Positions 1,441 to 42,213 of a stretch of DNA of 64,000 nt are shown one piece after another. The stretch's first letter is position 1. Each line of letters opens with the position of its first letter. Under the pieces are notes generated by a model, which ran no database searches, was not told where the DNA came from, and worked only from the letters and a program-made list of their open reading frames with translations. The translations under genes were made by a program, and so were the position numbers. Source of the stretch: Lingula anatina (Eukaryota; Animalia; Brachiopoda). The DNA is taken from NCBI GenBank assembly GCA_051362555.1, contig CM120648.1:2271721-2335720 (forward strand). Direction: 5' to 3'.

Positions 1441-4400
1441 TATCTGTGGGCACATGATTGAGTTGATCTCCTTTTTTCATATTCTGGTCTGCTGATTTCT
1501 GCGAGGAATGCAAGAACAGGACCGTCTATGTCTTTTCTGTCTTTCCATGTATAGCAGGTGAACCATCGCAAACAGCACTACAGTAATTAGCTATAACCAG
1601 AACCTTGTGAGGGGTCCCAACAGTTTGCAACATTTCGACAAACTTGTCGTATTTATCTTTGTTTTCTTGAGTCAGCTGGTCTCCTTTAGTTAGAACACCA
1701 AAAAGTGAAAAACGATCTATCGCCTATTAAAAAAGAAGATAACAACTAACAAAAGAAAAAGCGTATTTGTGTGTGTTAGTTACACGTACAACGTGTAAAC
1801 AACACCAAAAGAGTCTGAGAGGTGAAATAAGTTTACACTCACCTGCACCCAAAATTTCCTCGCATACTTGAGTCACAATACACTGAAGGCAGTTCCCCGT
1901 CCGCGCGCGGTAGCAACGAAAACCACTCGGTCAATGGGGACACCATCAACGCATTCGGGTATATCTTCTTCATTGTAGAGGAGGTCAAAAACGTTGGTGT
2001 TTACGGGTAGGATAACCCTGAGAACTTCTTCAAAACGGTTGGTAGGCATATTGCGTGGAGATAAACCGCACATATCTACGAGAACTGGAAGCTGTGCTTT
2101 TCTAAATACCTTTGTCGACGGTTCAGTCTTGCAACAAATCATACTTCTTTAGAATCTTTTAGGCGAGTTCATAGGAGTTGCCGCCGCACCTGGCGAGCTC
2201 TCTGTGTGTGCCAAAAAGTGCCATAGCGGTCTTTCCCTGTAGTCGAGTTGCCACTCCCATAGGCCCAAGAGTCGAACCCTGCAATGTTCTTTCCTGTAAA
2301 CTTTTTTGCTGAAACACATTGTTCAGGCCGAGAGAAGCAAAATTAGCTTGGTTGCTACTTCCGAGACATTGAACATTTTCAATGTGGCCGTCAATTTATG
2401 AGAAAAAATAGAAAAACGACTAGAACTTGAACGTTTATCCTATCAGAAGAGCACAACAGAACTAGTAAAAACACTTAAGCGCGTAACATTTAGCATAAAA
2501 CCGAAATGGCCGTCAAAACATATGACAGAAAGTGATAAAAGCTGCAAATTTAGTTCGTTTTTTGCATATTTAGCCTCATTAAAACCATACCTGTTTTTTT
2601 TTTTTATATATATTGATGTTAATTACGATATTTTGTTAGTCATGTACCTAAACACTCAGAATAAGCTTATCTGACAGTTCAATAAGGGGTGGTTGAGGGC
2701 ATAACCCCACAAGAGTCTGCCACTTCCACGGGCCTCATAGTCGAATGCTCCTATGTTATTCCCGTTTTTTTTTTTTAAGAATTGAATTCTTTGGGGCTAT
2801 AAAGGCCAATTTAATTTTTCCTTTCTTGCCAGTGGCTACATCTGAAAGATAGATCAATTTTCAAAATTCAAGATGGCCGTCAATAATATAAAATATATTA
2901 CAATTTTATTATACTATAAATAAATAGTTATGCAAAATAGCAAAGAGTCAGGGTTCAAAGTGCATGGTATTCCGCTTTTCAAATGACCGCTAAAACATAT
3001 CCAAAAAGGAAAAAAAGCAGTAAAATTGCTTTTTGAACTGACAATCTGCCGTATAATATGTATTTAAGTCTTTCATTTAATGACAAGGTGTACTAGTAAG
3101 GTAGTTATACAATCTGAAGGAAATTTTATTGAGGGCCAACAGGGGTTTCCGCAGGATTTTGGGTACAGGAAGTCCAAAAAAATTATCTGCAATCGGTGCC
3201 TCATTAACAGGGAATTCAACCAAGTCCGTCAGGGGGTGGGGGGTAAAATTAATGAATAATATATTTAACTATTGTCAAAATATTAACTTATTATTCTTTG
3301 TTTTTTATTGATCATTCTTACCTTAAATTATTGTCATTTGATGTCTTTATCACAACTATATTCAGTATGTATATAAAATTGGGCTTTAAAATTTTTCGTT
3401 CTTTTAATTAAGATTGGCACGTTTCAGACATTTTTTTTATTCAAATTACGTCAGTGCATAACAGCACTTCTAATTTGCCTAATTACTGCACTTTTCACTT
3501 TAATTTAAATAAAGTCAATAAACAAACATCTTACACATATATTTTGGTTGTATACTGACAGTCTTTAAAAACTTTGAGGCCATATTTTTCGACATAATTG
3601 TTGTTTTGAAGCCCTAAACTGGATTTTGCCTTGGCCAACTGATGACCAAAATAGTACACATGGCCAGAAATGCGCAGCATTCACGCGATACGCGAGGGCG
3701 CTACAGTAGGGCTTCACGTGACTCAACTAGCCAATCACAGCACAACAATGGCATCGCACACAGACTCTGTGATAAGTGCTCAGCCCATTGTCAAGTAGTG
3801 TTAGTTCATGGTAACAAGCGTAATATGATTGAAAATACTGATTGAATTCTTGGCCTTGCACTGGGCAGTTTCACGTTTGTGCTAAGTGCTTTCTTTTTGG
3901 ACTCCATTGTGCAGTGGTAAAAGTTCTTCAATTGCCATGAAAGTTTTTAATCAGACTCTGTATGGTGCTGCTGTCTGCTGGTGCTATCGGCAACGAATTA
4001 GTTTGCCTTTGTTTCTGAGTGAATCTACCGGCTAAAATCATTATTTCTAAAAATATGTGCGTTTTGCTGAGGGTAGGCTAGGCAATTGCTTCTTGTGCTG
4101 TACGACTGACATGGCGAAACTGGTCCCGCAAGTGATGCAACCTGATGTAGCGATCCTGGTCGAGAGTTAAAGTCATAATAACTCTTCGTTTTGGCCAAAA
4201 ATTGGATTTCCTGGAGTAAACGGCAATTTTCCCGTACTTACCAATGGTCAACGACCCCATTCCTACATTCAAAGTTAGTCCAGGTTTTTTTTTCCTAAAC
4301 GTTCTGTTTTTTGTTAAAATCTCTTAAGGGATTTTAACTGACGGAGCCCTCTCTGACATTGCATAGTAACGCGATATCGAGCGATATCTTCTGGTGACCT

Positions 4401-5985
4401 ACTTAAAACCGCGGGAAAAGCAGACAACAACAACACTATCTAATAACAATAATATAAGATTCATAAGATATATTCGTCTTAAATGCATCAAAATGCATTA
4501 ATATCTTCAATGTGTGCAGTTCTGGGCTTTTCGTTATCCGACGCACTACATACAAAAACTCGCAACTTACGCCTGCAGATGGCATCATGTACGTCTTTTT
4601 TTTTCATGGCGCCATATGTTATTTTGGTCTCGAATGAACGCGAGAATCCGCCTGACACGCCAACGTCATTGGCAACGGATGCCTTGACGACCGGGAAGAA
4701 AGGAATCGAAAGCCCTATTGACAAGCACAGATTTTAGTTTTACTACAATACAGCCGTTTTAGTGGTAAAATGCAATATAATATATTTCTATGCGTTGTTT
4801 ACAATGTATTTCTTGCAGAATTTTGAATCTCAAAGGAAGAGTTATTATTGCTTTAACACTCTCTCGCCCTGGACGTGGTCTATCGCAAACAGAGCCTCAC
4901 ATGCTGTGGCATTCAAACAGGTTCGGGAACAGTCCGTACGCATGACTATATCACTGTAGCTAAAATCGGACTCCCCCCCCCCCCCCCCCCCCCCCATACC
5001 AAGTGCCCAGAGACGCACGTTGTTCACGTGATAGACGTGACATGATTCCGTTCACTGGACTAACAACAATGGTTGCCTGTTTTGGGACTTTATATGGGCC
5101 TCCAAAACCAATCCTCAAAATGTGCAAATGCCCGCACTGAGTATTGATCTATGTGTATTTGGTCCACTTTCGCAGAAAGACTAACCCATGTGCAATGAAC
5201 CATGACATGGCAGCTAATCATTTTCTCAGCTACACTAGCACTAAGTCATCAATAAATCCACAATACATAAGTACAACTCCCCTAAAAGTAAAAATACGCA
5301 TACGTTCTTACCCCAAGCTTCCATTGATATTGGCAAAATTAAAAATACCACTACATGATGTCGATGGGTAGACGAAATAATTTAAAAAAATAGCTTGCAA
5401 GATATAACATAGCAGGCTTCAACTATGGGGCTCGTGGGAGTGGCAAATGGAAATGACACCTTCTGCCACCATCTGTTGAACGTCAAATAAGCAGTTTCTG
5501 AGAGTTTAGGGTCATGACTAACAAAATATCATAATGAACATAAATATACAGTGTGTAAGGGGAATATGCTTTTAATAAAACTAAATATGCAAAAAACGAA
5601 TTAATTTTGGAGCTTTTTACACTTTCTCTGTTTAGACGGCCATTTTGGCTTTTTTTACTGAATGTTATGCACTTAAGTGTATTCACTAGTCCTGCTGTGC
5701 TCTTCCGATAGGATAAACGTCCAAAGAAGCCTGCAATAAAGTATACCCGGCGACTTCTGGTCGTTTTTCTTTTTTTCTCATAAATTGACGGCCATATTGA
5801 AAAATGCTCAATGTCTCGGAAGTAGCAACCAAGCTAATTTTGTTTTTCTCGACCTGAAGAATGCATTTCAGAAAAAAAAGTTAACAGGAAAAAACATTGC
5901 AGTGTTAGCGTTCTGGCTACTCGACTACTGGGGAGTAGGACCCGACAGGAACTTTCTCCCACGTTTTGCTAAAAAAGCTCCCCAT
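1441..5985 (-). pseudogene. IFI44-like pseudogene (exon 2 ~1441-1723; exon 1 split into 1843-2239 and 5928-5985)
   Basis: Homologous to 35300-36743 (LPVLVDMCGL, FGVLTKGD, MGSFFSKTWEKVPV). It has frameshifts, a ~90-bp deletion of the P-loop segment and a 3.7-kb TIR element inserted in exon 1. Confidence 0.85.
2240..5927. mobile_element. Non-autonomous DNA transposon with ~450-bp TIRs (Academ-like)
   Basis: Ends TAGTCGAG...CTCGACTA; 2240-2690 is the inverted copy of ~5465-5927; 3-bp TSD CTG at 2237-2239 and 5928-5930; no transposase ORF. Confidence 0.8.
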
Positions 5986-6119
5986 GCTGGCTATGGTAGA
6001 CCAGTGAGGTCACCAACGATTTAGTTTTAAGAGGGCACGTAGTCTGAAAAGGGATATAATGTCAACTTCTAATCGTTTTCGGTGACACGATGAAGGGTCT
6101 TTGAACTAAAGAGGATTCC

Positions 6120-6270
6120 GCGGGGAGTTCAAACCGACTGGAGCTTTCTCTCACGTTTTGCTGAAAAGGCTCCACATGGTAGCTAATGTAGACCAGCGTG
6201 GTTACCAACGAGTTTTAAGAAGGGGCTTTTAAAAGGGAGACAACGTCAATTTCTAAAAATACGACTCGAA
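6120..6270 (-). pseudogene. Degenerate duplicate of the IFI44-like start exon and upstream flank
   Basis: Second copy of 'ggggag..aaccgac.gga.ctttctc.cacgttttgctg..aag.gctcc.catg', matching 5931-6030 and 36688-36865. Confidence 0.6.
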
Positions 6271-7004
6271 AAAGCCCGTTTTATAAACAATAACAAAGCA
6301 ATCATGGAATTTCCATATGATTCGGTTTCTTGCGGTTAAAAAAACCTACAAAAATGAAAAGTGTATATTCATTATATTGAGTGATCACTCAACCGCATTA
6401 CAAGGAAGTTGTGTCAATCTCCAACTACAGGTATCAGTAGGCCCCAGTGTTGTGAACCCTCATCTACTTGTGAAAACCCAGTATCGTAGACGTGCAGATA
6501 TATAAAATTTCTATTAACTATAACCCCCCCTCTCAATCCCATTTTTATTCAAACGAGAATAGATTGCAAGATTCTGATGGTTGTCGCTGATAAAGAACGA
6601 ATAATAACATCAATATTTATTGAACCGTTAAAGACACAGGATTAAGGACTGAGTGATCACAAGGAATTTTTAATTAATTTGAAAGGCTTATCATTTCAAA
6701 AACTAAATTCCACTTCATTTCTCATTTTGGAAACTTGTATTGTGATTATATTGAGTCTTTCCTAATCGCTCAACCATGAAACAAGGAACTAGTTATGCGG
6801 TTGAATGATCAGTAAAGTGCCTTTTCATGCAGTTGGGTGATCACAAGGACTGAGGATTGAGTGAGCACAAAGACTTTTTTATTATTTCTTAAATGCTTAT
6901 CATTTCCAAAAAGTTTTCACCTTATTTATCATTTCGGAAACGTGTATATTGATTATACACCCAAACCCAATATGGAATTGCAATTCACATTCCAGTGGAA
7001 TACT

Positions 7005-7350
7005 GTGAGATACTACAACTCCAAAAATTTCGAAAATTCTCGCTGTCAGTTTCTCCTTCGTCCATCTTCAACAGGGGCTTTTCTCGCGTCGTGATACCTG
7101 GGTTTTCTGTTGTAGGCACTGAATATTTTGTGCGCAGTAGACTGATCTAATATGTACATCAGAGTCGACCTACGGGGCACGAGTGTTGAAAATATTGTTT
7201 GCACAGACAAAGACAACAAAGAAAACTTCAATGTTATTTTATATCAGCTCTCTCACATTCGTTTCATTAAAAGTCACTCTACGTTCAGCCTTTGACGTAA
7301 ATCAGGAATACCCTTTACCTACCTCAGAATATATACGACTTAGGTTATAA
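7005..7350 (-). promoter_or_regulatory. Orphan copy of the family-B upstream/promoter block
   Basis: Aligns with 24130-24465 and 42155-42480 (gaaaattc.cgctgtcagtttc..., cgacctacggggcacgag..., tcagctctctcacattcgttt). Confidence 0.55.
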
Positions 7351-7961
7351 AAAAATTAAATAATGCACTTGGATTTTTTTATTTCTTATGATCTCTTTAA
7401 GTTTAAACAAATGGATAATATGATATGAAGATCAGACTCACATATACATTAGTGACATAAATTATGTCTTTGTTCACACTAACAAAGATTTGATGCAGTC
7501 AGTGTTAAATGTTATGTATATCTAACCCATATACCAAAACTTAGGTTTCCCGTCTATCAAAATGACAACAGTGTATTTGGAGACAAGGAATATTAAAAAA
7601 TAAATATAAAGGTCCTTTCTGTCTCCCTCGTTTAGGAATAACCATAATGCATATACAATACTTGAATACACGTTATTATTATTATTCTTATTACAATAAT
7701 TATTTTTATTATTATTTAGCTTGGTCCCATATCCTTCAAAGTATATTCACAGCAGGCACTTTTGCGTCTTAACTGGCGTTAACGAAACTGTAATTATCAA
7801 CCAATCAATGTATCTCGTCATCAAAAGGCTACGATAAAACAAATAATATATCTGCATTTAATTGAATTATGTTATAAAATACCATGCTGATCATTTCTGG
7901 CACGGAACTTGGAAGCGTTTTCCAGTTGTTTTTTATTCCATTTCCTTGTTAAACACACACA

Positions 7962-8338: not shown

Positions 8339-9187
8339 TCACTTCTTATCGGTTAAGGCTTCTTCAACGAAGTTCTTCATAAACCTCAATTGGAAGTTAG
8401 ATGGACTGTTGTCCACAGTGACCAAAGCGACGCTTCTAGACACTCCACTACGAGTTTGCTCTCCCTGACTGCGTCCTCTCATGTACAGGTCCTGGCCCTG
8501 TTGGAGGACACTGCCATAGATACTTTCGTCGTACAGGGTTTCACGGGGTGTGTTCTTTTCTCCAAATATGATTATCAGCACCGTTGCTGAAAAACAAATA
8601 TGTCTACATGTATATCATGCATATGGAATATTTTAATGGATATGCATTTTTAACAAAGTTTAGACCAATATACTTGTATAGCTAATTTTTATGACCGCCA
8701 GCGAAGTGGAATATTTGACAAAAGTACCCACCTTGAAAGGATCCGGCGTCTGTTATAAGTTCCGCAAAGACCGTGCCATCATCCAAATACATATGTCTGA
8801 TGTTTTTCGGAAGACAACAGATCAGGAGCTGACACTCTGGTGCTAACTTGTGACCCCTGTTAAGGAGGACGATATCTGGACAGGAATTCTTTCCGAACAT
8901 CGCCTGAAGTTTGTTAGCTGTCTCAGAACTCAAGACACCGACGAATGTTTTCTGTATATCTTCGGGACGATGAATGGCCATCAAATCTTTCTCCTGTAAC
9001 AGCATTTGATCGGCTTTTAAATTTACTGCAGTAACACATACTCCTACCATAACCAATATTTGCTTGTGCTTAATTTTAAGTAAGACGCAGAGTTAAAAGA
9101 GAGGGAGAGGGAGAGAGAGAGACTACAACTGAGCTTATCAACTTTTGGCTAAGGCATTACACTCATACGGCTTTTATTTATTTATTT

Positions 9188-9222
<35 letters not shown>

Positions 9223-9696
9223 TTGAATAGATTACAATAATTGTGGTCATTCCAAAAAGCAAATCAGTATTTCACATTATGTCTACATTATATTATATAG
9301 GGACTACATGTATTACAAACAACAACATTACAAGGGTACTGCGAGGGTGGTGCGATATTTATATAAGACACAGTAGTGTGAAAACACCTTCTTTATACTG
9401 AATCTTATGTATAAACCTAAAACTTTTCTGTCACAAAATTATAAAACCCGTATTCAGTCCCATACTTCACTGACAACTTACCGCAATAAGAGGAAGTATT
9501 TGCAGCAGTCGCAGAACGTGTTTTCGCAATATACCTGAATCAGTTGAATACAATTACTCTATAGTCTAATTCTTTATACTATACTATTTCAAACTTCCTT
9601 GATAACTTACAGTAATAGGAATTATCCCCCAACGTTCAAGATAGCGTATTTCTGAAATATTCCAATTCTTTCTGATGTAAGTACAAACAACAAACT

Positions 9697-9729
<33 letters not shown>

Positions 9730-10410
9730 AGAACCGATCACCGTGTTATTAATCTACACAATTGTATTGGTGACAATTATTTAAAAGCAAGTGATATTTT
9801 TTGACATAATGTACACCCCTTGTATGCTTCTATATATTTTGAGACTACTAATATACGCATATATGTACAAACCTCGACGCCAAAGGACGCAGCAAATTAC
9901 AGTTCCACAAGTCAGTGCTCCGAATGCTACCCAACACCATCTTGGTACTGCTGCGACATATGTACACAGCTAAAACAAAAAGTAGATAATTTGCTCTCAT
10001 GAGATTAATGTCCGGTGGTTTAGGTCCTACTCACGCTTGGCTGTCGCTACAGGTACATATAGGCTACGCTAATATTTAGTGTAGGGCCTACAGTCTATGG
10101 CGTATAAATTATAGCGTAAAATTTTCTATAAATGACGATTTTGATTGTTTCAAATAGTCAAAAGCACTACCGATAGTGTCGAATTCTAAAGTCATTTTAG
10201 TGGCTTTTAGGTTCATTAACGGGAGAGCAAGGCGACGGACGACCCTGCTTGTCCTTACTGGGCCGCCAATGGGCGAACACACGATTAGTTGACGTAACGA
10301 TCATGAACGCGCTCGCCAGCTCTTACCCCAGCTGCTAGTTGCCAGAATGTCTTTCTCCAGTCGTCGCTTGCCTGCCCCGTACCAGTCCTGGCGTCCTGCT
10401 GATCTCCCAT
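8339..10410 (-). CDS. Family B copy 1: single-pass membrane protein with cytoplasmic alpha/beta (TIR/SEFIR-like?) domain; exons 10327-10410, 9873-9969, 9482-9534, 8732-8993, 8339-8586; 247 aa
   Basis: All four introns are GT-AG with phases 0,1,0,1, giving an open 744-nt CDS. TM WCWVAFGALTCGTVICCVLW is followed by RR. Exons are conserved in three paralogs. Confidence 0.8.
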
Positions 10411-10481
10411 AGTCGTGTTGATGTTTCTAGCTTCAGGTAGATGGGCTAGACTGTGCAAACTGTAGGACTGTCTCCAGATAA

Positions 10482-10858
10482 GGCCACACTTTTTTATTTT
10501 TATGGATGACATCCTGAGCGCGCACCGATTTTCGTTCGTTCTTCGGGGAAAAAAAAAAAAACGAAGCCTGTTGTCGCAAACGCCGTTATTGAATTTGCCG
10601 GAAAATGAACTTTCTGCTCATGTGTATTATCGCCACATGGAAATATGTCCGCTTTTTGGTCAAATTCTAGGTTTACTTTCAAATTACACGACAATTAAAG
10701 TCATAATAAAGAGAACTGGGGCTGTCGTTTAGGATTGGTATGCCATTGATATTAGGCATGGAGATATCACCTTTTTACAATTATACGAAAGGCTGGCGGC
10801 GGCCATCGATTATTGCCCGGAACATTTTTGTGACATTCTGTCCAAAGCAGCACATACC

Positions 10859-10905
<47 letters not shown>

Positions 10906-11526
10906 TAGCGAAAAAAAGGGTCGACAAGGGCGTCGAGGTATTTGGTGGGCTGAAGGGCGGACAGGCCACCAGACAGTTTGGCATCCCTGTGTGAGTCGAA
11001 GTAGAAAAAATGGCGTCGACGGAAATGACCTTTAATAGATTTGGTAGGCCCTACTATATTAAGCATATCTTTGAATCATTTTTTAAACATTTCTGTGAAA
11101 TGTTCATAATGCTTTAATATTCTGAGAGTACAAATAAAGACACACTGTTTGTTTGATATTTGTTTTATTGATTTCTATACATGCACCAGCAAAATGCATG
11201 AAATAACCTTAAACAGATTTGGTAATAGGGCCTATGCAGCATATCTATTCATGACTTTTACCATTCTATGAAGTATTCACAATGCTTTAAAATAATATTT
11301 TGAGAGCATGGATAAAGACATATTGTTAGTTTGATACGTGTTTCTGTGGTAAATTTGTGTTTCCAGCTGTGTACTGACAGCATTACTTTACTTAAGCAGT
11401 ATTTATTTATTTATTTATTTATTTATTTTTTTTTTTTTTGGGGGGGGGGCTGTTTTTTTCCCGCCGTCTCGCACCCATTTCGGGGTCCCCAGAGGATGTC
11501 ATCCATAAAAATAAAAAAGGGTGGCC
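10482..11526. mobile_element. PIF/Harbinger-type non-autonomous element ~70 bp upstream of the B1 ATG
   Basis: TIR GGCCAC(AC)TTTTTTATTTTTATGGATGACATCCT; TAA TSD; second copy at 38034-39030. Confidence 0.85.
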
Positions 11527-12689
11527 TAATGTGATATAGTGTGATATGCTTTCTGTTTCGTTTCCTGTTTCGTTAAATATTGTCTATCTTCTGCAGGGAC
11601 TTTTTGCACGCCATACCTGTAGGCCTATGTCTGGTTTTTTTAGACGATAGGAAATTGAATATATATATGAGTGCGGTCGGCTGATCCACGATGTACTTAA
11701 CCTTGCCGACCTACGGGGCACGAGAATTTAAAATATTGTCTGTACACACAAAGTCAATAAAGAACTGTCCTAGTTATTTTATATTAGCTCTCTCACATTC
11801 GTTTAATAAAGAGCCTCCTCTGTTCTGTATTTCGGGTTAGTCAACAACACTCATGAGCTATTTCAGTAAATAAACGACTTATATAAAATATTTAAATTCA
11901 CTAGAAAATGTTCATCGCAACGATCTACTAGTACATGGTATCATATAAGTAGAGAAAGTAGGCCTACTTCTGTGATGGTATGTAAAACCGAAACCAAGAA
12001 GAATGGAAGATAACAATTACTAGAACCTTTTGACATTAAAAAAGGACGTAAATTTGTAAGGACGCGCCAGTTTTGAGCTTTGTAACAACATAATTAAAAT
12101 TCAAAATAAAAGAAAAATTATGAAAATAAAAAAGAAAGAAAGAATAGAATTGATTCAACACATTGTGTCCTCGTACTTGAAATTTTCAGAAAACATTGCT
12201 TGAGTTGCTACCTGCAGCCAACTACCGCAATCGCCATCCTCCTAGGCTGTGTCTCCTCTTGGACGGTAGCGTCATCTGGGACCACCGATTGTAAACAAAA
12301 CAATGGCGAATTGCGAGGCAGAGGCAGCCTCACCTCTTCCAGGGCGACAGATTGATTTTCCACAGATATTCACAGATATGTCTCTAGATAAATAGACAGT
12401 CATTTTGGTCTGATACGCTTTAGCCAAAAATGTCAACAATAATAGCTGCGGCCCTGGTAGAGGGTAATAATACCTAGTGATCTTCATTAACCAAGTAAAT
12501 TTCAATCAATCAACTGTGAAAAACTCAGGTAGGCCCTAGACACTGAGTTAAAGAAAACACTGAGCTCAATATTTTTTCACTTGGATAAAAGCCACTTTTT
12601 TGTACATGTGCTTGTGTTCATGTTAGGCACGAACGGAAGGGAAAGTCGGGGGTGTGAGGGCTTGCAGCTTATAAAAAAGGTATAGACCA

Positions 12690-13462
12690 TTGTGTCTATG
12701 TTCTTAGTTATTTAGAACCTACATGCAAAACTTATATTACTTTGGTTCACTGATGTGGATTGAACAGCTACATGTACATGGGTGTTCTTGCTTGTAAAAT
12801 GAAATCTTGAAGGCCATTTAATGTGGTCTTGAACTTGTTTACGTGGCACAGATCTAATTCTGTCTTTAACGTGATTATCACCCACTGAAGTTCAAAGAAC
12901 AATGCAGTGGTCTTAATCCGTACACCAAATGGAGTTTGTCCCAAGTTATCTTGGAGTTTCTAGGTGCAATAGGGTGTTGTTTTGATTAAATAAAGAACTA
13001 TTGTGATGCACTCTGGTGGGTCTCCCTGTGTTTTTTTAATATAAAAATTATTGGGAATAATATTACTCACTGGCATCTTTTCATGCATTGATTGCAGCAT
13101 GCCCCTCACTTGTAAAATGTACTCTCGAAGATGATTCAATATATTAAACATCAACATGGGCGTGGTCACTTGTGAAATGCACTCTTGAAGACCATTTAAT
13201 AAAATGCATGTCATCTGGCCATGAACTTGTTCACGCGACACAGTTTTAGTTTTGTCCTAAATAGTGATCATCACCTGTTGAAGTGCAAAGAACAATACAG
13301 TGATATCTTAATGCGTAATCAAACTGTACTTTGAAACTGTTGTGCATGACATTCGTGATAACCTGTCTTGACATAATAACCTGTCTTGTAATAATATGTG
13401 CCTTGATTTGTGCCATCTCCTTTTTAACTACACATGTCATACAAATAAACTGGCAGCTCATC
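12690..13462 (-). pseudogene. Relic 'C': decayed exon-like region with internal repeats downstream of the IFI44-like copies
   Basis: Acceptor tttacag at 13462; recurring LNxLxExIxQ motif; internal ~385-bp duplication; paralogs at 26030-28487 and 33393-33962; stops and frameshifts. Confidence 0.4.
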
Positions 13463-14650
13463 TGTAAATAAATTGGTTTATAAACATGTTCATTATGTTA
13501 ACATTGCAAAGACACTATTTGGACGTGGTCTGGGCCATTAAGGAAGTGTACTAGATTGGGATCTGGTCTATCACACACACACATATATTCCCCAAGAACA
13601 ATTCTGGTGATTTTCCACTAGTGACATTGACCATCGGTCGGCAGATATACCTTATGTGACACAGATAAATTACAAGTACAACGATAAAAAAAAGAAAAAA
13701 AATAACAAGTACTCTACGCTACTGATTCATATTGTGACAGAATTTTATTCAGGTATAAGCAAATCATTAAACCTCCATTATTGCAAGCTGCTACTCGTTA
13801 AAGATTTTATTATTGCTCCCTGCGTTATTTACCGCAATCAGTTCAATAAACGCTAATCCAATTGAAAAAATAAACACAGAACTGAGTGGACTTGTGACAC
13901 ACAGTATACCAGTATACTATAAATAAATTTATCTTTATTTTCAAGCAAGCCTAACTCATAAAACAAGTTACACATGCAGGTACACGTACACGGAAACGGG
14001 ACGAACAATTCGTTCAATGCGTCCAAGACAAAAACATGCAATACAATAATCTTTTTTTAATTTTTTCTAAAATGCTTATCATTTCAAAAACTAATTTCCA
14101 CCCTATTTCTTATTCAGAACTTATTTTAAAATTGTATATTGGTTATACTGAGTCGGTACTGATTACTTGACCGCGTAACAAGGAACTTCAGTATAGATTT
14201 AACCGCATTGCAAATTCCTTATTATGCGATTGAGTGATCACAAAGATTTAGGATTGAGTGAAAACAATGAATTTTAAAGTTATTTTTACATGCTTATCAT
14301 CTCAAAAACTAATTTTTATTGTGGAAACTTGTATATTGATTATATTGTGCCTTTCCTGATCACTCAACCTCGTCCAAACGAAAACAAACAATGTCAATAC
14401 AAAAGAACCTTTATAGATATTTTTAAATGCTTAGCATTAAAAAATAATTATCATTATAATTTCCAGCCTATTTCGTATTTCGAATTCTATTACCAGAACT
14501 TGTATAAGCATAAGAAATGGTAGTAGTGTAACGATTTTGATATTGAATATCTCCATTTAAAATGAAAATAACGCGTGTTTAACTCAAGTCTGTGTTTCTT
14601 TTGTGTGTACGTTAGATTATTTGTTGGCAAATGATTCAGTTGATCTTGTC

Positions 14651-14977
14651 TTAGTCATATTCTGATCTGCTGATTTCGGCAGGGAATGCAAGAATACGGC
14701 CGTCTATGTTTTTTCTGTCTTTCCATGTCGAAAGTGAATCACTATAAATGGCACTACAGTAATAAGAATGCAAGAATAGGACCGTCTATGTCTTTTCTGC
14801 CTTTCCATGTTGCAAGTTATACAGTAATTAGCTGTAACCAGATCCTTGTAAGGGGTCACGACTGCGTGCAACATTTTGGCAAACTTGTCATATCTGTCTT
14901 TGGTCTTTCGAGTCAGCTGGTCTCCTTTAGTTAGAATACCAAAAAGGTTAAACTCTGAAATACAAAAGTTCTTTCGT
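14651..14977 (-). pseudogene. IFI44-like exon 2 only, with internal tandem duplication
   Basis: Homologous to 35300-35562 (FGILTKGD...AEISRSEYD*); exon 1 is absent. Confidence 0.75.
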
Positions 14978-15074
14978 CTATTAAAAAGAAGATAACAACT
15001 ATCGTAAGTGAAAGCATCTGTGTGTATAAATTACAACATGCATAGAATTGCGAGAGAGTCAAAGAGGTGAAATA

Positions 15075-15810
15075 TGAGTTTCCACCAGTACTCCAAAATT
15101 CACGGCTCTTCAAACGTGTAGCGTGTTTGAAGCAAAACTTACAAGTTTTATGGCGCTCAGTGAATGTGGGAGAATACCGTTATATGTAACCTATATATCC
15201 AGGTGTGTCAAGTATTGGACAAGATTGGGGAGATACCCAAGACAGTGCAATATTTTACTGCGTCAGTTGGACTCAGCAGGAAGGACGACGTGGGCGACCC
15301 ATATAAAACACCTTTTCCAGTCCTGTTTCGGCTTTGCCTGGATCGCGGACGAGTTAGAAGATGCTACTGAGTAAATTAACCAATTTACGACACGAGTGAC
15401 AGACTGTGCATTACAAAAACATTTGCTGATATATACACATCATCAAAGTGCTAATCATACGAAACTTTACAAAACTGTTTTAAATCCAGAAAGTTATTTG
15501 TCATTGCCATTGTTTTATATACAGAAACGTACGTTATCAGATATCCGCTGCTGAACCAACAGTCTCATGATTGAGAAAGGAAGTCACATAAATATAGGAA
15601 AAGACAGTAGATTTTGTCCATATTGTTTAACTCATAAAGTTTATACTATAGAAAATGAGATACACTTTCTACTACTCTGTCCGTTGTTTAGTGATTTGAG
15701 GGAGATATATTTCAAAACAAGATGGACAAAACAGTAATAATGAACGATTATTTGGAATTCGTCTGACATTAGTACGGGTGGCATATTTAACAAGATTTTT
15801 AACTAGTGCA
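15075..15810 (+). mobile_element. Non-LTR retrotransposon (LINE) ORF2 C-terminal fragment
   Basis: SECGRIPL..CVKYWTRL..WATHIKHL..FGFAW, then FCPYC...IENEIHFLLLCPLFSDLR (CCHC-like C-terminus); broken frames. Confidence 0.7.
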
Positions 15811-17407: not shown

Positions 17408-17472
<65 letters not shown>

Positions 17473-24159: not shown

Positions 24160-24187
24160 GAAAATTCCCGCTGTCAGTTTCTCTTTC
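24160..24187 (-). promoter_or_regulatory. kappaB-like site (GGGAATTTTC) next to ISRE-like site (AGTTTCTCTTTC) upstream of B3
   Basis: gaaaattccc at 24160-24169 and agtttctctttc at 24176-24187, ~110-135 bp upstream of the ATG; conserved upstream of B4. Confidence 0.55.
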
Positions 24188-28068: not shown

Positions 28069-28588
28069 ACTGTGTTTTGGTATGTATTGGGAATAATATT
28101 TCTCACTGGCATCTTTTCATGTATTGATTGCAGCATGCCCCTTTCTTGTACAATGTACTCTTGAAGAAGATTTAATAGATTAAACGACAACATAGATGTG
28201 GTCACTTGTGAAATGCACTCATGAAGACAATTTAATTGAATGCACGTTATCTGGCCCTGAACTTGTTTACGCGACACAGTTTTAGTTTTGTCCTAAATAG
28301 TGATCATCACCTGTTGAAGTGCAAAGAACAATACAGTGATATCTTAATGCGTAATCAAACTGTACTTTGAAACTGTTGTGCATGACATCCGTGATAACCT
28401 GTCTTGACATTGTAATAATATGTGCCTTGATCTATGTCATCTCCTTTTTAACAACACATGTCATACAAATAAACGGGCAGCTCATCTGTAAATAAATTGG
28501 TTTATAAACATGTTCATTATGTTAACATTGCAAAGACACAATTTGGTCTTGGCCATTTAGGAAGTGGACTAGATTGGGATCTGGTCTA

Positions 28589-28625
<37 letters not shown>

Positions 28626-28957
28626 AAGAACAATTCTGGTGATTTTCCGCTAGTCACATTGACCATCGGTCGGCAGATATACCTTATGTGACACAGATAA
28701 ATTACAAGTACAACGATAACAAAAAAAAAAAAAAAAAAAGAAAAGAACAAGTACTCTGCGCTACTCATTCATATTGTGATTTAATTTTATTCAGGTATAA
28801 GCAAATCATTAAACCTCCATTATCGCAAGCTGCAACTCGTTAAAGATTTTATTATTGCTCCCTGCATTATTTACCGGAATCAGTTCAATAAACGTTAACC
28901 CAATTGAAAAAATAAACACAGAACTGAGTGGACTTGTGACACACAGTATACCAGTAT

Positions 28958-31859: not shown

Positions 31860-31967
31860 GGGTGTTTTGTTGAACTCAAGTCTGTGTTTCTTTTTCTTTC
31901 TTTTTTTTTTTTTTTTTTTTCGTGCGCGTTAGATTATTTGTGGGCAAATGATTCAATTAATCTCGTC

Positions 31968-32059
31968 TTAGTCATATTCTGATCTGATTATTTCTGCAAG
32001 GAATGCAAGAATGGGTCTGTCTATGTCTTTTCTGCCTTTCCATGTCGCAGGTGAACGAC
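31968..32059 (-). pseudogene. 3' stub of IFI44-like exon 2
   Basis: SPATWKGRKDIDRPILAFLAEIIRSEYD*; the rest of the gene is deleted. Confidence 0.75.
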
Positions 32060-32388
32060 CACACCCTAACGAGCACACCCTAATGCTAATTGTGTGTGAA
32101 TTTGGTGACATTTGATGACGTCTTTTCAATTTTATAGACATTTCTTTACATCTGTAGAAGTCACAGTGAAACAGTGGATTTGAGGGGGTACCTCTTATAA
32201 ATTTTATTAAATGGTATAAAATATGCATATTTTAACCACTAGTTTGTATTTTTTAACCATTAATCATGTTAGACACGGTTTCTGTAATAAAAAGCACTAT
32301 TTCTAACAATTTACAGCTGTGAGGTGATCATTTGTAAATAAAAGTACATGGAAATGGGGGTGGGACAACCTTTTTGACCAATGTTGTA
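32060..32388. mobile_element. Tc1-like transposon end bridging the deletion of an IFI44-like copy
   Basis: Ends ...gtgggacaacctttttgaccaatgttg-TA; homology to 36956 resumes immediately after. Confidence 0.45.
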
Positions 32389-34187
32389 CTGCGTGAAACG
32401 TGATTCAGGAATTTTTGGTGATTGGCCTGAATACATCTTGGTGATTGGTGATTAAGGGGGGTATCCCCTACCCTCCTTTAATAATCAATAGCCATGCAAC
32501 AATTTGGTAACCCAAATGATTGGGTTTCTTATGGTTAAAAAACCTGAAACTTGTATATATATTCATTATCAGTCTTTATTAATCTCTTTATTAATCGTCA
32601 GTCTTTACTAATCACTCAACCGCATATAACACTATCAGTCATTTCTTCGAACAAAAAGCGAATAGGGTCCCGATTCGAATAACTGTAGTAGTCTGTTCTA
32701 ACTGTAGTAGTCGTAAGTGAGGATTTTTGTTAACCGGTTTCTCAAAATCTTGTTAGCGATCTAAGACGTCTCGTCGCGGCATGTAAATTCTCCTACTTAG
32801 CGACTGGCTCCGACCTGTACCAAAATTACTTTGCGAAACGTTCGTGAAAGGGTCTGTTCGCAAAAAAAAAAGGAACTTTGCGCAATTGGGCAAATTGCGA
32901 AACGTTTCGTGAAAGCCGGCCCTGGGCTTTCTTCAGCGATTCGAATACCGGTAACTTACCGTAACCAACATCTGTTTAGATTTTACTGTGCATATGCAAA
33001 GAAAAGTGCGGGTATCTATGCACACTTGTTTATCACTTTATCGTTTGCACCAAACGTATTTGGAGGTCATCGCTCACTACAACACGGGGAAACATAAACT
33101 TATTTTGCCATCTGATACGTTCCAATAATGCTGGAATGTCTTATGAGTTGCACTTGCCGTCACAAATAAATACAGAAGACAAAAGTGGAGTACGATTAGA
33201 GCCGTAAATGGCTTCATATTTTTGTTTGGTATTTTGAGTTTTCAAAAAAAATAATAATAAAATAAAAATAAATAATAATACATGTAACTGCCCTCAGTTG
33301 TCTTTTTTGTGTGTATGATCAAACATTTTGATTGAGAAAAACTAACATAACGATAAAAATGACGATATTGTTATAGCATCTCGTACAGTATCACCCACTG
33401 AAGTTCAAAGAACAATGCAGTGGTCTTAATCCGTACACCAAATGGAGTTTGTCCCAAGTTATCTTGGAGTTTCTAGGTGCAATAGGGTGTTGTTTTGATT
33501 AAATAAAGAACTATCGTGATGCACTCGGGTGGGTCTCCCTGTGTTTTTTTAATATAAAAATTATTGGGAATAATATTACTCACTGGCATCTTTTCATGCA
33601 TTGATTGCAGCATGCCCCTTTCTTGTAAAATGTACTCTCGAAGATGATTCAATATATTAAACAACAACATGGGCGTGGTCACTTGTGAAATGCACTCTTG
33701 AAGACCATTTAATAAAATGCATGTCATCTGGCCCTGAACTTGTTCACGCGACACAGTTTTAGTTTTGTCCTAAATAGTGATCATCACCTGTTGAAGTGCA
33801 AAGAACAATACACTGATATCTTAATGCGTAATCAAACTGTACTTTGAAACTGTTGTGCATGACTTTCGTGATAACCTGTCTTGACATTGTAATAATATGT
33901 GCCATGATCTATGTCATCTCCTTTTTAACAACACATGTCATACAAATAAACGGGCAGCTCATCTGTAAATAAATTGGTTTATAAACATGTTCATTATGTT
34001 AACATTGCAAAGACACAATTTGGTCTTGGCCATTTAGGAAGTGGACTAGATTGGGATCTGGTCTATCACACACACACACACACACACACACCAAGAACAA
34101 TTCTGGTGATTTTCCGCTAGTCACATTGACCATCGGTCGGCAGATATACCTTATGTGACACAGATAAATTACAAGTACAACGATAAC

Positions 34188-34218
<31 letters not shown>

Positions 34219-35299
34219 AAAGAAAAGAACAAGTACTCTGCGCTACTCATTCATATTGTGACATAATTTTATTCAGGTATAAGCAAATCATTAAACCTCT
34301 ATTATCGCAAGCTGCAACTCGTTAAAGATTTTATTATTGCTCCCTGCATTATTTACCGGAATCAGTTCAATAAACGTTAACCCAATTGAAAAAATAAACA
34401 CAGAACTGAGTGGACTTGTGACACACAGTACACCAGTATCATCATCATCATCAGAGACGGAAGGGTCAAGGCTGACCCGCCGTGGCACATGCAACGGTAC
34501 GCACCGTTACCCTGGGCCGGGGAGCTACTGAGGTGCTACTCCTTGCTCAAGGGAGCCCCAGGGTGCAGTTTAACGTCTTACCCGGGACGAATACCAGTAT
34601 ACTATAAATAAAAAATATCTTTCATATTTTCAAGCAAGCATAACTCATAAAACAAGTTACACATGCAGGTACATGCAATACAATAATCTTTTTTTAATTT
34701 TTCTAAAATGCTTATCATTTCAAAAACTAATTTCCACCCTATTTCTTATTCAGAACTTGTTTTAAAATTGTATATTGGTTATACTGAGTCGGTACTGATT
34801 ACTTGACCGCGTAACAAGGAACTTCAGTATAGATTTAACCGCATTCCAAATTCCTTATTATGCGATTGAGTGATCACAAAGATTTAGGATTGAGTGAAAA
34901 CAATGAATTTTGATTTATTTTTACATTCTTATCATCTCAAAAACTAATTTTTATTGTGGAAACTTGTATACTGATTATATTGTGCCTTTCCTGATCACTC
35001 AACCTCGTCCAAACGAAAACAAAAGCACCTTTATGAATATTTTTAAATGCTTAGCAATAAAAGAATAATAATTATCATAATTTCCAGCCTATTTCGTATT
35101 TCGATTTCTATTACCAGAACTTGTATTACCATATAAGAAACGGTAGTAGTGTAACGAATTTGATATCAAATATCTCCATTTAAAATGAAAGAAACGGGTG
35201 TTTTGTTGAACTCAAGTCTGTGTTTCTTTTTCTTTCTTTCTTTTTTTTTTTTCGTGCGCGTTAGATTATTTGTGGGCAAATGATTCAATTAATCTCGTC

Positions 35300-36743
35300 T
35301 TAGTCATATTCTGATCTGATTATTTCTGCAAGGAAAGCAAGAATGGGTTCGTCTATGTCTTTTCTGCCTTTCCATGTAGCAGGTGAACCAGCGCAAACAG
35401 CACTACAGTAATTAGCTATAACCAGAACTTTGTAAGGGGTCCCGACTGCTCGCAACATTTCGATAAAATTGTCATATTTATCTTTGTTCTCTCGAGTCAG
35501 CTGGTCTCCTTTGGTTAGAATACCAAAAGGTTTAAACTCTGAAATAAAAAAAGTTCTTGGGTCTATTAAAAAGAAGATTACAACTAGCAAAAGTGAAAGC
35601 GTATCTGTGTGTATAAATTACAACATGCATAGAATACCCAGAGTCAGAGAGGTGAGACTGAGAAAGGAGGTTACACAAATATAGAAAAGGACTGTGGACT
35701 CTGCCCATATTGTTTAACTCAGAAAGTTTATGCCATAGAAAATGAGATACACTTTCTACTACTGTGTCCGTTGTATAGTGATTTGACGGAGAGATATTTC
35801 ACAAGTTGGAAAAAAAACTGTAAAAAAGAACGATCATTTGGATTATGTCTGACATTAGTACGGATAGCATATTCTCATATCCTCACTGGCAAGATTTTTT
35901 GTGCATTTGCATTTCGAGAAGAGATTTGTTGCTAATGAAGTAATTCAATTCAGTGTTTATTAAGAACATGACTATTATAACGTTTACAATCATTTAAAAT
36001 CTTTAAAAAGAGGAGCAGCTATTATGGATATGTTCATACTTATTCGGTGTACATAAAAGGATTTATTTCTTTACTGCCAGTGGTACACCATAGTTACTAT
36101 GGTGAAATTGTGCATGTACTTTGGGTCGGGCGCCTTTAATTACGTAATAAACATCATCATCATCAGTATGTTTTCACCCACCTGCCCCCACAACATCCTC
36201 GCATACTCTTCTTACTGAATCACAATACGCTGTAGGCAGCTCCTGGTCCGCGGCAGCAACGAAAACCACTCGATCTATGGGGACACCATCGGCGCATTCA
36301 GGTATCTCTGCTTCATTGGAGAGAAGGTTAAGAACGTTGGTGTTTACGGGTAGACGACCTCTCAGGACAACCCTGAGAACCTCTTCAAAACGGTCGGTAA
36401 GGATATTGTTCGGATTTAAACCGCACATATCTACGAAGACTGGGAGCTGTTCTCTTGTAAATAACCTTGTCGACGGTTCAGCCTCGACTTCGGACAAATC
36501 ATGCTTCTTTAGAAATTTTGAGATGTGTCCCTCAGTGCCCCCGCTCTTGGCGAGCTCTCTGTATGTGCCAAAAAGTGCCGTAGCGGTGGCATTTATAAAA
36601 GACGATTTACCGCTTGCTACATTTCCAATTAGCAGAATATGTTTTTGGCGACGTGACTCAGTATCTCTGATCACAAAAGTCTTCTTTGGGGAGTAGCAAC
36701 CGACAGGAACTTTCTCCCACGTTTTGCTGGAAGAGCTCCCCAT
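35300..36743 (-). CDS. IFI44/IFI44L-like P-loop GTPase, intact 2-exon gene (exon 1 36182-36743, exon 2 35300-35562; ~275 aa)
   Basis: G1 ILLIGNVASGKSSFIN, G3-like LPVFVDMCGL (cf. IFI44 DTMGL) and G4 ILTKGD in exon 2. Donor CAG|GTGGGT at 36182/36181 and acceptor ttaatag| at 35563 are both phase 1 and in frame; an alternative in-frame acceptor lies at 35539. N-terminus MGSSSS; no TLDc domain. Confidence 0.85.
35658..36163 (+). mobile_element. LINE 3' end in the IFI44-like intron
   Basis: Same family as 15570-15810; ends with aataaa followed by a (CAT)n tail at 36146-36163. Confidence 0.7.
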
Positions 36744-39750: not shown

Positions 39751-42095
39751 TTAGACTTGGTGATCTCCATATTCATCTGACACCCTAGTGTCAGGAAAGG
39801 CACGTTCAACAAAATTTTTCATAAATTCCAGTTGGAACCAAGATGGACTGCTGTTCACTGTGACCAAGGCGATGTTTTCAGACAAACCGTCTCCGTTCTC
39901 TGTTGTACCGGGGTTGTCTTGGCAACGGTTTTTCAACTGCGACGTCCGACGTCGTCCTTTCATGTATAGCTCCTGGCCCTGTCGGAGGACGTTGCCGTAG
40001 ATTTTTTCATCATGCAGGGTTTCCTCATGTGTCTTCTTTTCTCCAAATATAATTATCAACACCATTGCTGTAAGGCATAAACATGCAAAACATAGTGCAA
40101 AATAAAATACTGAATACAACACAAGCGATTTACTGTTCTTACAAAGGCTTCGAAATCATTCCATCACGAGTGCAGAGGTATATATATATATATATATATA
40201 AACACCCACCTTGTATGGATCCAGCGTCCTCTATAAGTTTGGTGAAAACCGTGTCACCATTTAAGTACATTTTTCTGATGTCCTTTATTAGACAACAGAT
40301 CAAGAGCCGACAATCTGAGTTTAACTCGGTACCCTTGGCGAGACTGGAGATTTCTGGACAGAAGTTCTTTCTGAACATAGCCTGAAGTTTTTTTGGTGTC
40401 TCAGAACTCAAGACACCGACAAATGTTCTCTGTATGTTTTCTTCGGGACGAGGAATGGCCATCAAACCTTCATCCTGTAACAGCATTTGACCCGTTTTAA
40501 ATTTAATACTGCAGTAACACTTGCCGTAACCAATATTTGCGTGTGCTTATACTTTAAGTAAGACGAAGCAGTGTAAAACTTTCACCCAACCGTATCTCGG
40601 TACTACTTTGTCATATGTACGGAGCTATAAAAATTGGAAGGTATCTTCATATATACACTGTATCACACTGGTACTCAAAATTTAGACTGAAGTAGTCTGT
40701 CACATATTACTGGTACATTCACTGACATTACAAGAGCACTGCCTCTACAGTGGTGATATTCATGTCATTTAATTTTTTTATTAAAATTTTGATTAAGTCT
40801 TTTGATTATTATTGGGTTACAACGCCCGTATTCTATTTCAAACTACCTTGATAACTTACAGTAATAGGAAATATCCTGCAACGTCCAATACAGCGTTTTA
40901 GCCTTAGGCCTATACCTGAAATATTTCAATTATTAAAATATAATTCAATAATATCTTATTCTTTCTGGTACAAACGACGAACTTTTTTTGAGAACCGCTA
41001 AGTATGTTATTAATCTACACAATTGTATTGGTGACAATTATTTAAAAGCCAGTGATAATTTTGTGCCATAATGTACACCGCTTGTATGCTTGTATATATT
41101 ATGAGACTATATGCACATGGGCCTATGTATGTACCTCGACGCCAAAGCACGTAGCAAATAACAATAGTTACACAAGTCAGTGCTCCGATTACTACCCAAC
41201 ACCATACTGGTACTGCTGCGACATATGTACACAACTAAAACAAAAAAGGAGATGATTATATTAAACGAATTTGCTCTCATGAGATTAAAGAAGATGCTTT
41301 GCTTACTCAGATCTAGAGAAATTACAGACTTGCATGTAACAAAGCACTTTAATTTAGCACACACAATCAACAAAACTGACTCGTCCTTATACCGGTATAT
41401 CAGTGTAAGTAAAATCTACGGCATTGCAGTCTCATGCCAGAGCCGTAGCCTGAGCAAAATGCCAGGGGGGGCAGTAAGCCGACACGAGGGGGCGAAGCCC
41501 CCGAGGGGGGAGGGGGTGTCCCCCTACCAGTGTGGAAAATTCTAAATCCCAGGGGGGGGGGGGCAGCTGCCCCCCCCCCTGCCCCCCCGGAGGCTACGGC
41601 CCTGCATGCTACAGTAAATGTAGTTAATCTTGAATTAAAGGGTACGCTTAACTAAAAGTGACATATAATGACACCATACACTTTCGTGAGGGAACCTACA
41701 TGTCCCACTATAGGCCTATACACGGTGCTAGCTTAATTGGCTGTCACTAATAGGCTATTATATGCTAATATATAAGACAGTCTATGGCGTATAGATAGCG
41801 TAAAATTTTCTATAAATGACAATATCATAAGATTAGTTTCAAACACTTAAAAGCACTTGTGTAGTATTCTAAAGTCGTATTAAGGGCTTTTAGGTTCATT
41901 AACAGGAAAAGGTGACGGACTGTCTTTACTGGCCATGGGCGAACGCACGATTGGTTGACGCAACGATCATGAAACGCGCTCGCCAGCTCTTACCCCAAAT
42001 CCTAGTTGCCCAATTGCCTTTATCCAGACGTCGATTGCCTGCCCCGTAGCAGCCCTGTCATCCTGTTGATCTTCAATAGTCGTGTTGATGTTCAT
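39751..42095 (-). CDS. Family B copy 4 (exon 1 41994-42095; 2a 41135-41234; truncated 2b from 40624; exon 4 40210-40474; exon 5 39751-40067); exon 3 deleted
   Basis: Exons are open. The ancestral ATG is ATT but a new in-frame ATG lies 6 codons upstream. Splicing 2a to 4 frameshifts, whereas splicing 1 to 4 is in frame. Confidence 0.65.
41438..41604. mobile_element. hAT-type MITE with 5-bp TSD in B4 intron 1
   Basis: TIR CAGAGCCGTAGC / GCTACGGCCCTG; TSD CATGC; empty site in B3 at ~23796. Confidence 0.75.
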
Positions 42096-42185
42096 AGCTT
42101 CAGGTAAATGGACTCAACTGTACTGACTGTAGAACTTTTGTAAGTCTCCTGATATACTATGAGATGCTGCAGCTACTAAAATTTT

Positions 42186-42213
42186 GAAAATTCCCGCTGC
42201 CAGTTTCGCTTTT
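42186..42213 (-). promoter_or_regulatory. kappaB-like and ISRE-like sites upstream of B4
   Basis: gaaaattccc at 42186-42195; agtttcgctttt at 42202-42213. Confidence 0.5.

What the first reader, a model, noticed from the sequence alone, without database searches (positions are those of the whole stretch)
1441..42213. Candidate innate-immune cluster: alternating IFI44-like GTPase and TM + TIR/SEFIR-like genes
Seen: the same co-oriented module (family B, then IFI44-like, then relic C) recurs 4-5 times with rapid gain, loss and pseudogenisation. Known: IFI44/IFI44L are interferon-stimulated antiviral genes that are expanded in molluscs. Inference: a membrane-anchored signalling-domain protein co-duplicated with a myristoylated IFI44-like GTPase, with ISRE/kappaB-like sites upstream of family B, may be an undescribed two-component antiviral module.
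Basis: partly seen in the sequence, partly recalled or inferred. Interest (0 to 1): 0.85.

Follow-up and report, generated by a model that had tools for sequence, protein, structure and literature searches.

The report
Brachiopod tandem array with IFI44-related GTPase
A DNA block holding an uncharacterised gene family (B) and an IFI44-related GTPase gene recurs four times in what is likely a Lingula brachiopod, and because all four B genes have open frames while only one GTPase gene does, they are likely fast-turnover immune neighbours rather than an obligate pair.

Summary
The array is real, on the minus strand. The order B, GTPase, relic C recurs four times, not strictly alternating. Four B genes are open (243-279 aa, dN/dS 0.36-0.74). 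One GTPase gene is intact (266 aa, G1/G3/G4 motifs, MG start); three are relics. B's only sequence relatives are two Lingula anatina proteins. The GTPase is IFI44-related (family profile against fish IFI44L, 98.9%) but groups with uncharacterised, mostly tail-anchored invertebrate GTPases and has neither TLDc nor anchor. The TIR/SEFIR label is not established: B against 95 TIR domains scored 0.3% (positive control 94.8%); only weak fold leads remain. A clear TM helix is present in two of four B genes. An IRF-type core lies 120-135 nt upstream of three B genes, with a kappaB-like site in two; none was found before the GTPase. RNA confirms B3-type splicing; GTPase reads are about tenfold rarer and appear in 2 of 8 runs. 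Best reading: birth-and-death segmental duplication of likely immune genes (0.6). A two-component module stays possible (0.15). Synteny and induction could not be tested.

The parts
35300..36743 (-). G4: intact IFI44-related P-loop GTPase gene, exons 36743-36182 and 35538-35300, 266 aa, G1/G3/G4 motifs, MG start, no TLDc, no TM
   Evidence: a few RNA reads in 2 of 8 runs; splice junction not seen among listed joints
39751..42095 (-). B4: five-exon model, 279 aa, TM exon; the ATG shared by B1/B3 is mutated here and an in-frame ATG lies 18 nt upstream
   Evidence: low RNA depth on exons 4-5
21272..24051 (-). B3: 250 aa as five exons; carries a duplicated exon 2'/3' pair (22563-22458, 22262-22207) that also allows a 304-aa form; weak TM
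   Evidence: RNA joints for exon 4-5 (14 reads) and exon 3'-4 (12 reads) in runs X8 and X9
16064..19721 (-). B2: 264 aa, no TM, MG start; exons 4-5 are clear, exons 1-3 are inferred; Tc1-type element in intron 1
   Evidence: no RNA laid on it
8339..10410 (-). B1: 243 or 247 aa (alternative exon 3 or 3'), TM exon; promoter split by a 1-kb element
   Evidence: no RNA laid on it
1477..6273 (-). G1 pseudogene: start codon at 5985, 3.7-kb inverted-repeat insertion, P-loop codons 19-53 deleted, stop and frameshifts; second 5' fragment at 6122-6273
14599..15787 (-). G2 relic: intron pieces and a scrambled exon 2; exon 1 missing
31860..33244 (-). G3 relic: promoter copy and last 89 nt of exon 2 only
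   Evidence: tail 97% identical to G4
33389..34439 (-). Relic C, copy after G4: coding-like internal repeat with stops, no family assigned
   Evidence: bin 33569-34219 has no reads in 3 of 4 runs and a trace in one
26030..28957 (-). Relic C after G3, in two pieces (28957-28085, 26431-26030) split by retroelement-like DNA
12602..13915 (-). Relic C after G2 (96% identical to the copy after G4)
962..1246 (-). Head of relic C after G1 (about 71% identical)
24160..24187 (-). Exact ISRE consensus plus one-mismatch kappaB site, 110-135 nt upstream of the B3 ATG
42186..42213 (-). Paralogous ISRE-like plus kappaB-like pair upstream of B4
19839..19848 (-). IRF-type core at the homologous position upstream of B2, without the kappaB site
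7000..7361 (-). Orphan B promoter relic with the IRF core; its gene is lost
10481..11527 (.). 1-kb non-autonomous element with terminal inverted repeats in the B1 promoter; second copy at 38033-39031
   Evidence: RNA loose ends at 38033 and 39031 show copies elsewhere

Best explanation
A roughly 10-kb block (B gene, IFI44-related GTPase gene, relic C) recurs four times in tandem, likely through repeated unequal crossing-over in a Lingula-type brachiopod, and the two genes are likely independently acting immune-response genes that travel together as neighbours. Shown: the block order, four open B genes with dN/dS below 1, one intact and three dead GTPase copies, mixed ancestry of 5' and 3' halves among B copies, B3-type splicing. 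Inferred: B encodes a small membrane-tethered alpha/beta domain (TM helix in B1 and B4, possible lipid anchor in B2) that would be switched on by IRF and NF-kB factors and would act as an adaptor or effector. Inferred: G4 binds GTP and would reach membranes by N-myristoylation, in place of the C-terminal helix that most relatives carry.
For: Block map. B models open with GT-AG introns; the exon 4-5 join is matched by two Lingula RefSeq proteins and by RNA. dN/dS 0.36-0.74 in all 6 pairs over exons 4-5. Intron 4 is 91% identical in B1/B3 and 88% in B2/B4 but 66-70% across these pairs, while exon 2 of B4 is 88-91% like B1/B3 and 55% like B2. 3 of 4 GTPase copies dead. G family vs fish IFI44L 98.9%, 229 columns. 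3 of the 5 AANNGAAACT matches in the window lie 120-135 nt upstream of a B start; the IRF-plus-kappaB pair occurs twice against 0.065 expected in 200 simulated windows. Oyster IFI44 is a multigene family induced by poly(I:C) (PMC7064767, passages). One relative carries an HEPN_DZIP3 domain (P0030).
Against: No induction data. Motif counts window-wide are not above shuffles; the two composite sites are copies of one ancestral site and the pattern was chosen after seeing it. B has no assigned domain, so its immune role rests on neighbourhood and motifs. GTPase and B reads both appear mainly in one study (X8, X9), which fits co-expression. Survival of the one GTPase copy is next to an intact B. 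The dN/dS values are pairwise NG86 on about 170-190 codons with no significance test; B2-B4 (0.74) is near neutral.
Confidence: 0.6

Rival explanations
1. Two-component antiviral module: a membrane-bound B protein with a TIR-like fold recruits or triggers the GTPase, with several B variants serving one GTPase.
For: Constant order in 4 blocks. 17 of 33 relatives of the GTPase have a hydrophobic helix in their C-terminal half and G4 has none, so B could supply the anchor. TIR clusters rank 1 and 2 of 10 by structure for P0001 and 3 and 5 of 10 for P0002. GTPase reads occur only in runs that also have B3-type reads.
Against: Both intact in 1 of 4 blocks. No IRF-type motif in 950 nt upstream of G4 or about 1 kb upstream of G1. 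GTPase exon-1 bin depth 1.4 and 0.5 against 10.7 and 5.8 for the B3 exon 4-5 bin. B vs TIR profile 0.3%, within block-shuffled controls. All Atlas rows are under the naming bar and mixed with toprim, receiver and transketolase-C folds. No B domain in any of the 63 GTPase-family proteins fetched. G4 has its own MG start.
Confidence: 0.15
2. A non-immune lineage-specific array: B and the GTPase serve membrane, stress or tissue-specific functions, and the upstream motifs are inherited chance matches.
For: The GTPase groups with uncharacterised invertebrate proteins, apart from fish IFI44L. B has no known domain. Motifs are not enriched window-wide. B is transcribed in runs not listed as challenged (treatment is not given).
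Against: Full-length homology to IFI44L; IRF core at the same position in four promoter copies including the diverged B2; rapid turnover is usual for immune GTPases such as lancelet GIMAPs (PMC12373286, passages).
Confidence: 0.2
3. Part of the repetition is an assembly artefact: the G3 block is an uncollapsed haplotype or misjoin.
For: A 531-bp duplication is 100% identical and the adjoining 760-bp flank 99.3%.
Against: The other blocks differ by 4-25%, carry different insertions and have different breakpoints. It would change the count from 4 to 3, not the conclusion.
Confidence: 0.05

Closest known systems
IFI44 / IFI44L interferon-induced GTPase-like proteins
   Same: Homologous GTPase domain over 229 columns; G1 motif, G3 followed by a hydrophobic Leu and a G4 motif as described for IFI44L (bioRxiv 10.1101/2020.02.24.963900, section read); multigene and induced in oyster (PMC7064767, passages).
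   Different: No TLDc domain (human IFI44 has a putative one: PMC5614904, passage); about 22% identity to the fish protein; placed in a separate invertebrate clade; MG start; induction unknown.
Uncharacterised TLDc-less GTPases of molluscs, Lingula and amphioxus (e.g. XP_013389998.1, XP_041369346.1, XP_078697355.1)
   Same: Best sequence hits, 27-38% identity; same motif set. The amphioxus protein P0024 has the same plan: 273 aa, MG start, no TM.
   Different: 17 of 33 hits have a hydrophobic helix in the C-terminal half and G4 does not; G4 is a long branch (2.08); the gene neighbours of the hits could not be seen.
TIR and SEFIR domain proteins
   Same: Alternating beta/alpha pattern; TIR clusters among the nearest Atlas models (TM 0.53-0.61 by the shorter row); single-pass TM in front of the domain in B1 and B4.
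   Different: No Pfam match; profile comparison at noise level; almost no ectodomain (about 35-45 residues before the helix).
GIMAP/AIG1 clusters and other birth-and-death invertebrate immune arrays
   Same: Tandem copies with fast loss; 9 of 13 and 6 of 12 lancelet GIMAPs are dispensable (PMC12373286, passages).
   Different: No AIG1 match for G4 exon 1; here the GTPase is the copy that decays while an unrelated neighbour is retained.

Membership tests
IFI44/IFI44L | GTPase domain homologous to IFI44L over its length | tested here: met
   hhalign 98.9%, E 1.3e-17, 229 columns, 30-row family alignment vs 5 near-identical fish sequences; phmmer E 2.2e-5
IFI44/IFI44L | G1 GxxxxGKS, G3 DxxG plus hydrophobic residue, G4 motif | tested here: met
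IFI44/IFI44L | N-terminal TLDc domain | tested here: not met
   Only 34 residues precede strand 1; no Pfam TLD match. The fish IFI44L hit also shows none, so the feature is not universal; an unseen upstream coding exon was not excluded by RNA
IFI44/IFI44L | Orthology (one clade with vertebrate IFI44) | tested here: inconclusive
   G4 falls with invertebrate rows, split 99/96 from the two fish domains, but there is a long-branch warning, no outgroup and one vertebrate protein
IFI44/IFI44L | Induction by virus or dsRNA | not testable with these tools
   Run treatments are not given
TIR / SEFIR (family B) | Sequence profile similarity | tested here: not met
   Pfam none at E 10 for the 10 rows of A2; hhalign of the 6-row B domain vs 95 bacterial TIRs 0.32% and vs 3 SEFIRs 0.05%, control TIR vs SEFIR 94.8%. 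The B profile is shallow and no animal TIRs were in the set
TIR / SEFIR (family B) | TIR-type flavodoxin-like fold | tested here: inconclusive
TIR / SEFIR (family B) | Catalytic glutamate or box motifs | tested here: inconclusive
   No usable alignment to TIR
Two-component module | Both genes kept intact together | tested here: not met
   1 of 4 blocks
Two-component module | Shared upstream IRF-type element | tested here: not met
   Present before B2, B3, B4; none in 950 nt before G4; distal elements not excluded
Two-component module | Conserved linkage in relatives | not testable with these tools
   No genome held; no animal genomes in the locus collections (searches found nothing)
Two-component module | Physical interaction | not tested
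   Only single-exon or partial chains were available and B folds poorly

The most novel reading that the evidence does not exclude
Family B is a highly diverged TIR-fold, membrane-tethered, IRF/NF-kB-induced protein that supplies the anchor or trigger for an anchorless IFI44-related GTPase, forming an undescribed two-gene antiviral unit of brachiopods in which several B variants serve one GTPase; relic C may be a dead third member.
Probability: 0.12. Interest if true: 0.8.

Novelty: new variant of a known kind. Interest (0 to 1): 0.42.

Why it matters
The mechanism of IFI44 proteins is unsettled: its G1 region is dispensable against RSV, and another paper's title and abstract start call it a negative regulator (PMC6712396, listing only). 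A TLDc-less invertebrate branch with complete GTPase motifs is a simpler system in which to test GTP binding. Family B is a selected, transcribed family without any named domain, with ISRE-like promoters; solving its fold could name a new animal immune domain. If the pairing were real it would give IFI44-type GTPases a first genetic partner. The evidence here does not show that.

Tried and rejected
Whole genome: none held. Word-based search for G4 exon 1: 0 of 211 candidates (lengths 103-329). Longer B relatives: 0 of 7990 candidates at E 1 (weak evidence). B in metagenomes and prokaryote genomes: 0 of 277 and 0 of 131 pattern hits confirmed; plasmids gave two chance hits. Pfam, PADLOC and NCBIfam named no family for B. 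An integrin I-domain hit at E 0.09 was rejected: B vs 29 VWA domains scored 0.37%. Receiver (30 rows) and GATase (29 rows) controls were also at noise. Fold searches with the B model list no TIR domain match; this does not exclude the fold. No RNA holder was listed by the index; the nine runs came by species label and eight were laid. Relic C looked by eye like the C-terminal lobe of Mab21/cGAS-like receptors (recalled, from no call); Pfam at E 10 (0 of 5 frames) and PDB gave nothing. Rfam: no match. Earlier findings: none. Papers: 'Lingula'+'IFI44' gave 6 papers, 5 listed, none on this locus by title; searches listed nothing on a B-GTPase pair. The Lingula immune survey (PubMed 29278680) is not held and may bear on novelty. 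No complex prediction was run.
Full report
Source. The window is animal DNA with introns, about 37% GC. No whole genome is held. The only sequence relatives of family B are two uncharacterised Lingula anatina proteins, 76-77% identical over exon 4 (2 of 4 candidates). The organism is therefore likely Lingula or a close lingulid (inference).

Anatomy. Self-BLAST and a piece-by-piece map give four blocks on the minus strand. In transcription order: B4 (42095-39751), G4 (36743-35300), C; then a block that kept only a B 3' flank, the GTPase promoter, the last 89 nt of exon 2 (G3) and C; then B3 (24051-21272), B2 (19721-16064), G2 relic, C; then B1 (10410-8339), an orphan B promoter, G1 pseudogene and the head of C. 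A six-frame HMM scan found no other B gene and no other GTPase piece below E 0.5. Some intergenic similarity is due to mobile DNA: a 1-kb element with inverted ends sits at 10481-11527 and 38033-39031.

Family B. All four hand-built models are open with GT-AG introns. The exon 4-5 join is the one in the Lingula RefSeq proteins. RNA reads skip exactly the 149-nt intron 4 of B3 (11 reads in X8, 3 in X9) and join exon 4 to the duplicated exon 3' (10 and 2 reads). Reads were accepted from 88% identity, so they may come from alleles or paralogues. Pairwise dN/dS over exons 4-5 is 0.36-0.74 in all 6 pairs, which suggests purifying but loose selection; no significance test was run. The 3' halves form two lineages (intron 4: B1/B3 91%, B2/B4 88%, cross pairs 66-70%), while the TM exon of B4 is 88-91% like B1/B3 and 55% like B2. 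This points to exchange between copies or replacement of B2's 5' exons. A hydrophobic helix is clear in B1 and B4, weak in B3 and absent in B2, which starts with MG instead.

Is B a TIR/SEFIR protein? Pfam names nothing. I built control alignments from bacterial genomes (of the pattern loci, 95 gave a TIR segment of 110 residues or more and were used). The B domain profile scored 0.32% against TIR, 0.05% against 3 SEFIRs, and 0.05-0.37% against receiver, VWA and GATase sets, all within block-shuffled controls; TIR against SEFIR scored 94.8%. The B profile has only 6 close rows, so a very remote link could be missed. AlphaFold2 on the partial domain P0002 gave alternating strands and helices at pLDDT 48, with no clear PDB match. 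In the Atlas, TIR clusters are rows 1-2 for P0001 and rows 3 and 5 for P0002, with DUF4062 at row 9 (its TIR-like nature is recalled), but every row is under the naming bar and other alpha/beta folds score alike. By features the nearest clusters are unnamed animal proteins at 0.76-0.82, a level that shuffled proteins reach a third of the time. B is a small alpha/beta domain of unassigned family; a TIR-like fold is an open lead.

The GTPase. G4 has two exons and 266 aa, with G1, G3 plus Leu, and G4 motifs and an MG start with Ser at position 6. Exon 1 finds 33 proteins at E 0.001 or better, 27-38% identical. Of the 20 looked up, 14 are named: 13 uncharacterised or hypothetical proteins of molluscs, Lingula and amphioxus, and one fish IFI44-like protein. 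A family alignment matches the fish protein at 98.9% over 229 columns. The exon-1 model (pLDDT 84.7) resembles small and TRAFAC GTPases without a clear best match. In a tree of 35 rows G4 sits on a long branch among the invertebrate proteins, apart from the fish domains, with a long-branch warning. 17 of 33 hits have a hydrophobic helix in the C-terminal half; several of the rest are fragments; G4 has none and no TLDc. It works like an IFI44-type GTPase as far as sequence shows; orthology and induction are not shown. G1 lost its P-loop to a 3.7-kb insertion with deletion, G2 lost exon 1, and G3 is a stub.

Promoters. An exact ISRE consensus and a one-mismatch kappaB site lie 110-135 nt upstream of B3, with a paralogous pair at B4. 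The IRF core aligns at the same place in B2 and in the orphan promoter; B1 lacks the kappaB site and is cut off by the 1-kb element. Window-wide neither motif exceeds shuffles (13 vs 9.2; 84 vs 67.9). The composite occurs twice against 0.065 expected, but the two are copies and the pattern was chosen after the fact. No IRF-type motif was found in 950 nt upstream of G4.

Expression. Eight runs were laid, 6-30% of each read. G4 exon bins have depth in 2 of 8 (X8, X9): 1.4 and 0.5 on exon 1, against 10.7 and 5.8 on the B3 exon 4-5 bin. X1, X2, X4 and X7 (92% threshold) and X3 and X5 (88%) show none. No G4 joint is among those listed; 26 were not shown. B3 was covered in four runs only and was clearly expressed in two. 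Tissue, treatment and genotype of the runs are unknown, so the blanks may reflect absence of the genes in those animals.

How it likely works. Unequal crossing-over copied a block; selection kept and diversified B; extra GTPase copies decayed. The asymmetry, the missing IRF motif at G4 and the tenfold lower reads argue against an obligate pair. The homology, the promoter motifs and the turnover argue for an immune locus: oyster IFI44 genes are a multigene family induced by poly(I:C) (PMC7064767, passages), and lancelet GIMAP GTPases are often dispensable (PMC12373286, passages). I give this 0.6, a non-immune array 0.2, the two-component module 0.15 and a partial assembly artefact 0.05. What keeps the module alive is that G4 lacks the anchor most relatives have, and that its few reads come from the runs where B is expressed.

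Literature seen. Section read: bioRxiv 10.1101/2020.02.24.963900 section 27. Passages: PMC7064767, PMC12373286, PMC5614904, PMC8917759, PMC9334734. Listing only: PMC6712396. The mollusc IFI44 expansion paper (McDowell 2016) was seen only as a reference title. The Lingula immune survey was not held. No supplements were read; they may list these genes. Eight searches listed no description of this locus or pair.

Verdict. A real, undescribed tandem array with an IFI44-related GTPase variant and an unnamed, selected gene family. The TIR label and the partnership are unproven, and the within-window evidence leans against the partnership. Interest 0.42.

Noticed in passing
window 12753-13256, 26160-26429, 33393-33900 (minus): Relic C holds an internally repeated coding-like unit of about 60 aa with stops. 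By eye it recalls the C-terminal lobe of Mab21/cGAS-like receptors (recalled); Pfam and PDB searches gave nothing.
   Followed up: partly
window 17478-19191: Tc1/mariner-type element with terminal inverted repeats and a broken DDE_3 transposase (E 1.4e-8; ends) inside intron 1 of the B2 model.
   Followed up: partly
window 10481-11527 and 38033-39031: Two copies (75% identical) of a 1-kb non-autonomous element with 35-bp inverted ends and a 3-bp target duplication, PIF/Harbinger-like by that feature (recalled); abundant in RNA runs.
   Followed up: partly
window 2239-5929: 3.7-kb insertion with inverted ends in G1; related pieces at 51683-51876.
   Followed up: no
window 26900-27600 (plus): Broken reading frames that look like a Penelope-type retroelement (recalled; no Pfam match), inserted in relic C.
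   Followed up: no
window 22207-22563 and 9482-9534: Duplicated exons 2'/3' in B3 and 3' in B1 allow alternative N-terminal forms; RNA uses exon 3' in B3-type transcripts.
   Followed up: partly
window 29718-30248 and 31329-31859: 531-bp duplication, 100% identical: very recent or an assembly artefact.
   Followed up: no
window 61339-62355: Tandem repeat of about 300 bp, three to four copies at about 72% identity.
   Followed up: no
proteins P0030, P0003, P0012, P0015: One GTPase relative is fused to an HEPN_DZIP3 domain; three have two GTPase domains in tandem.
   Followed up: no
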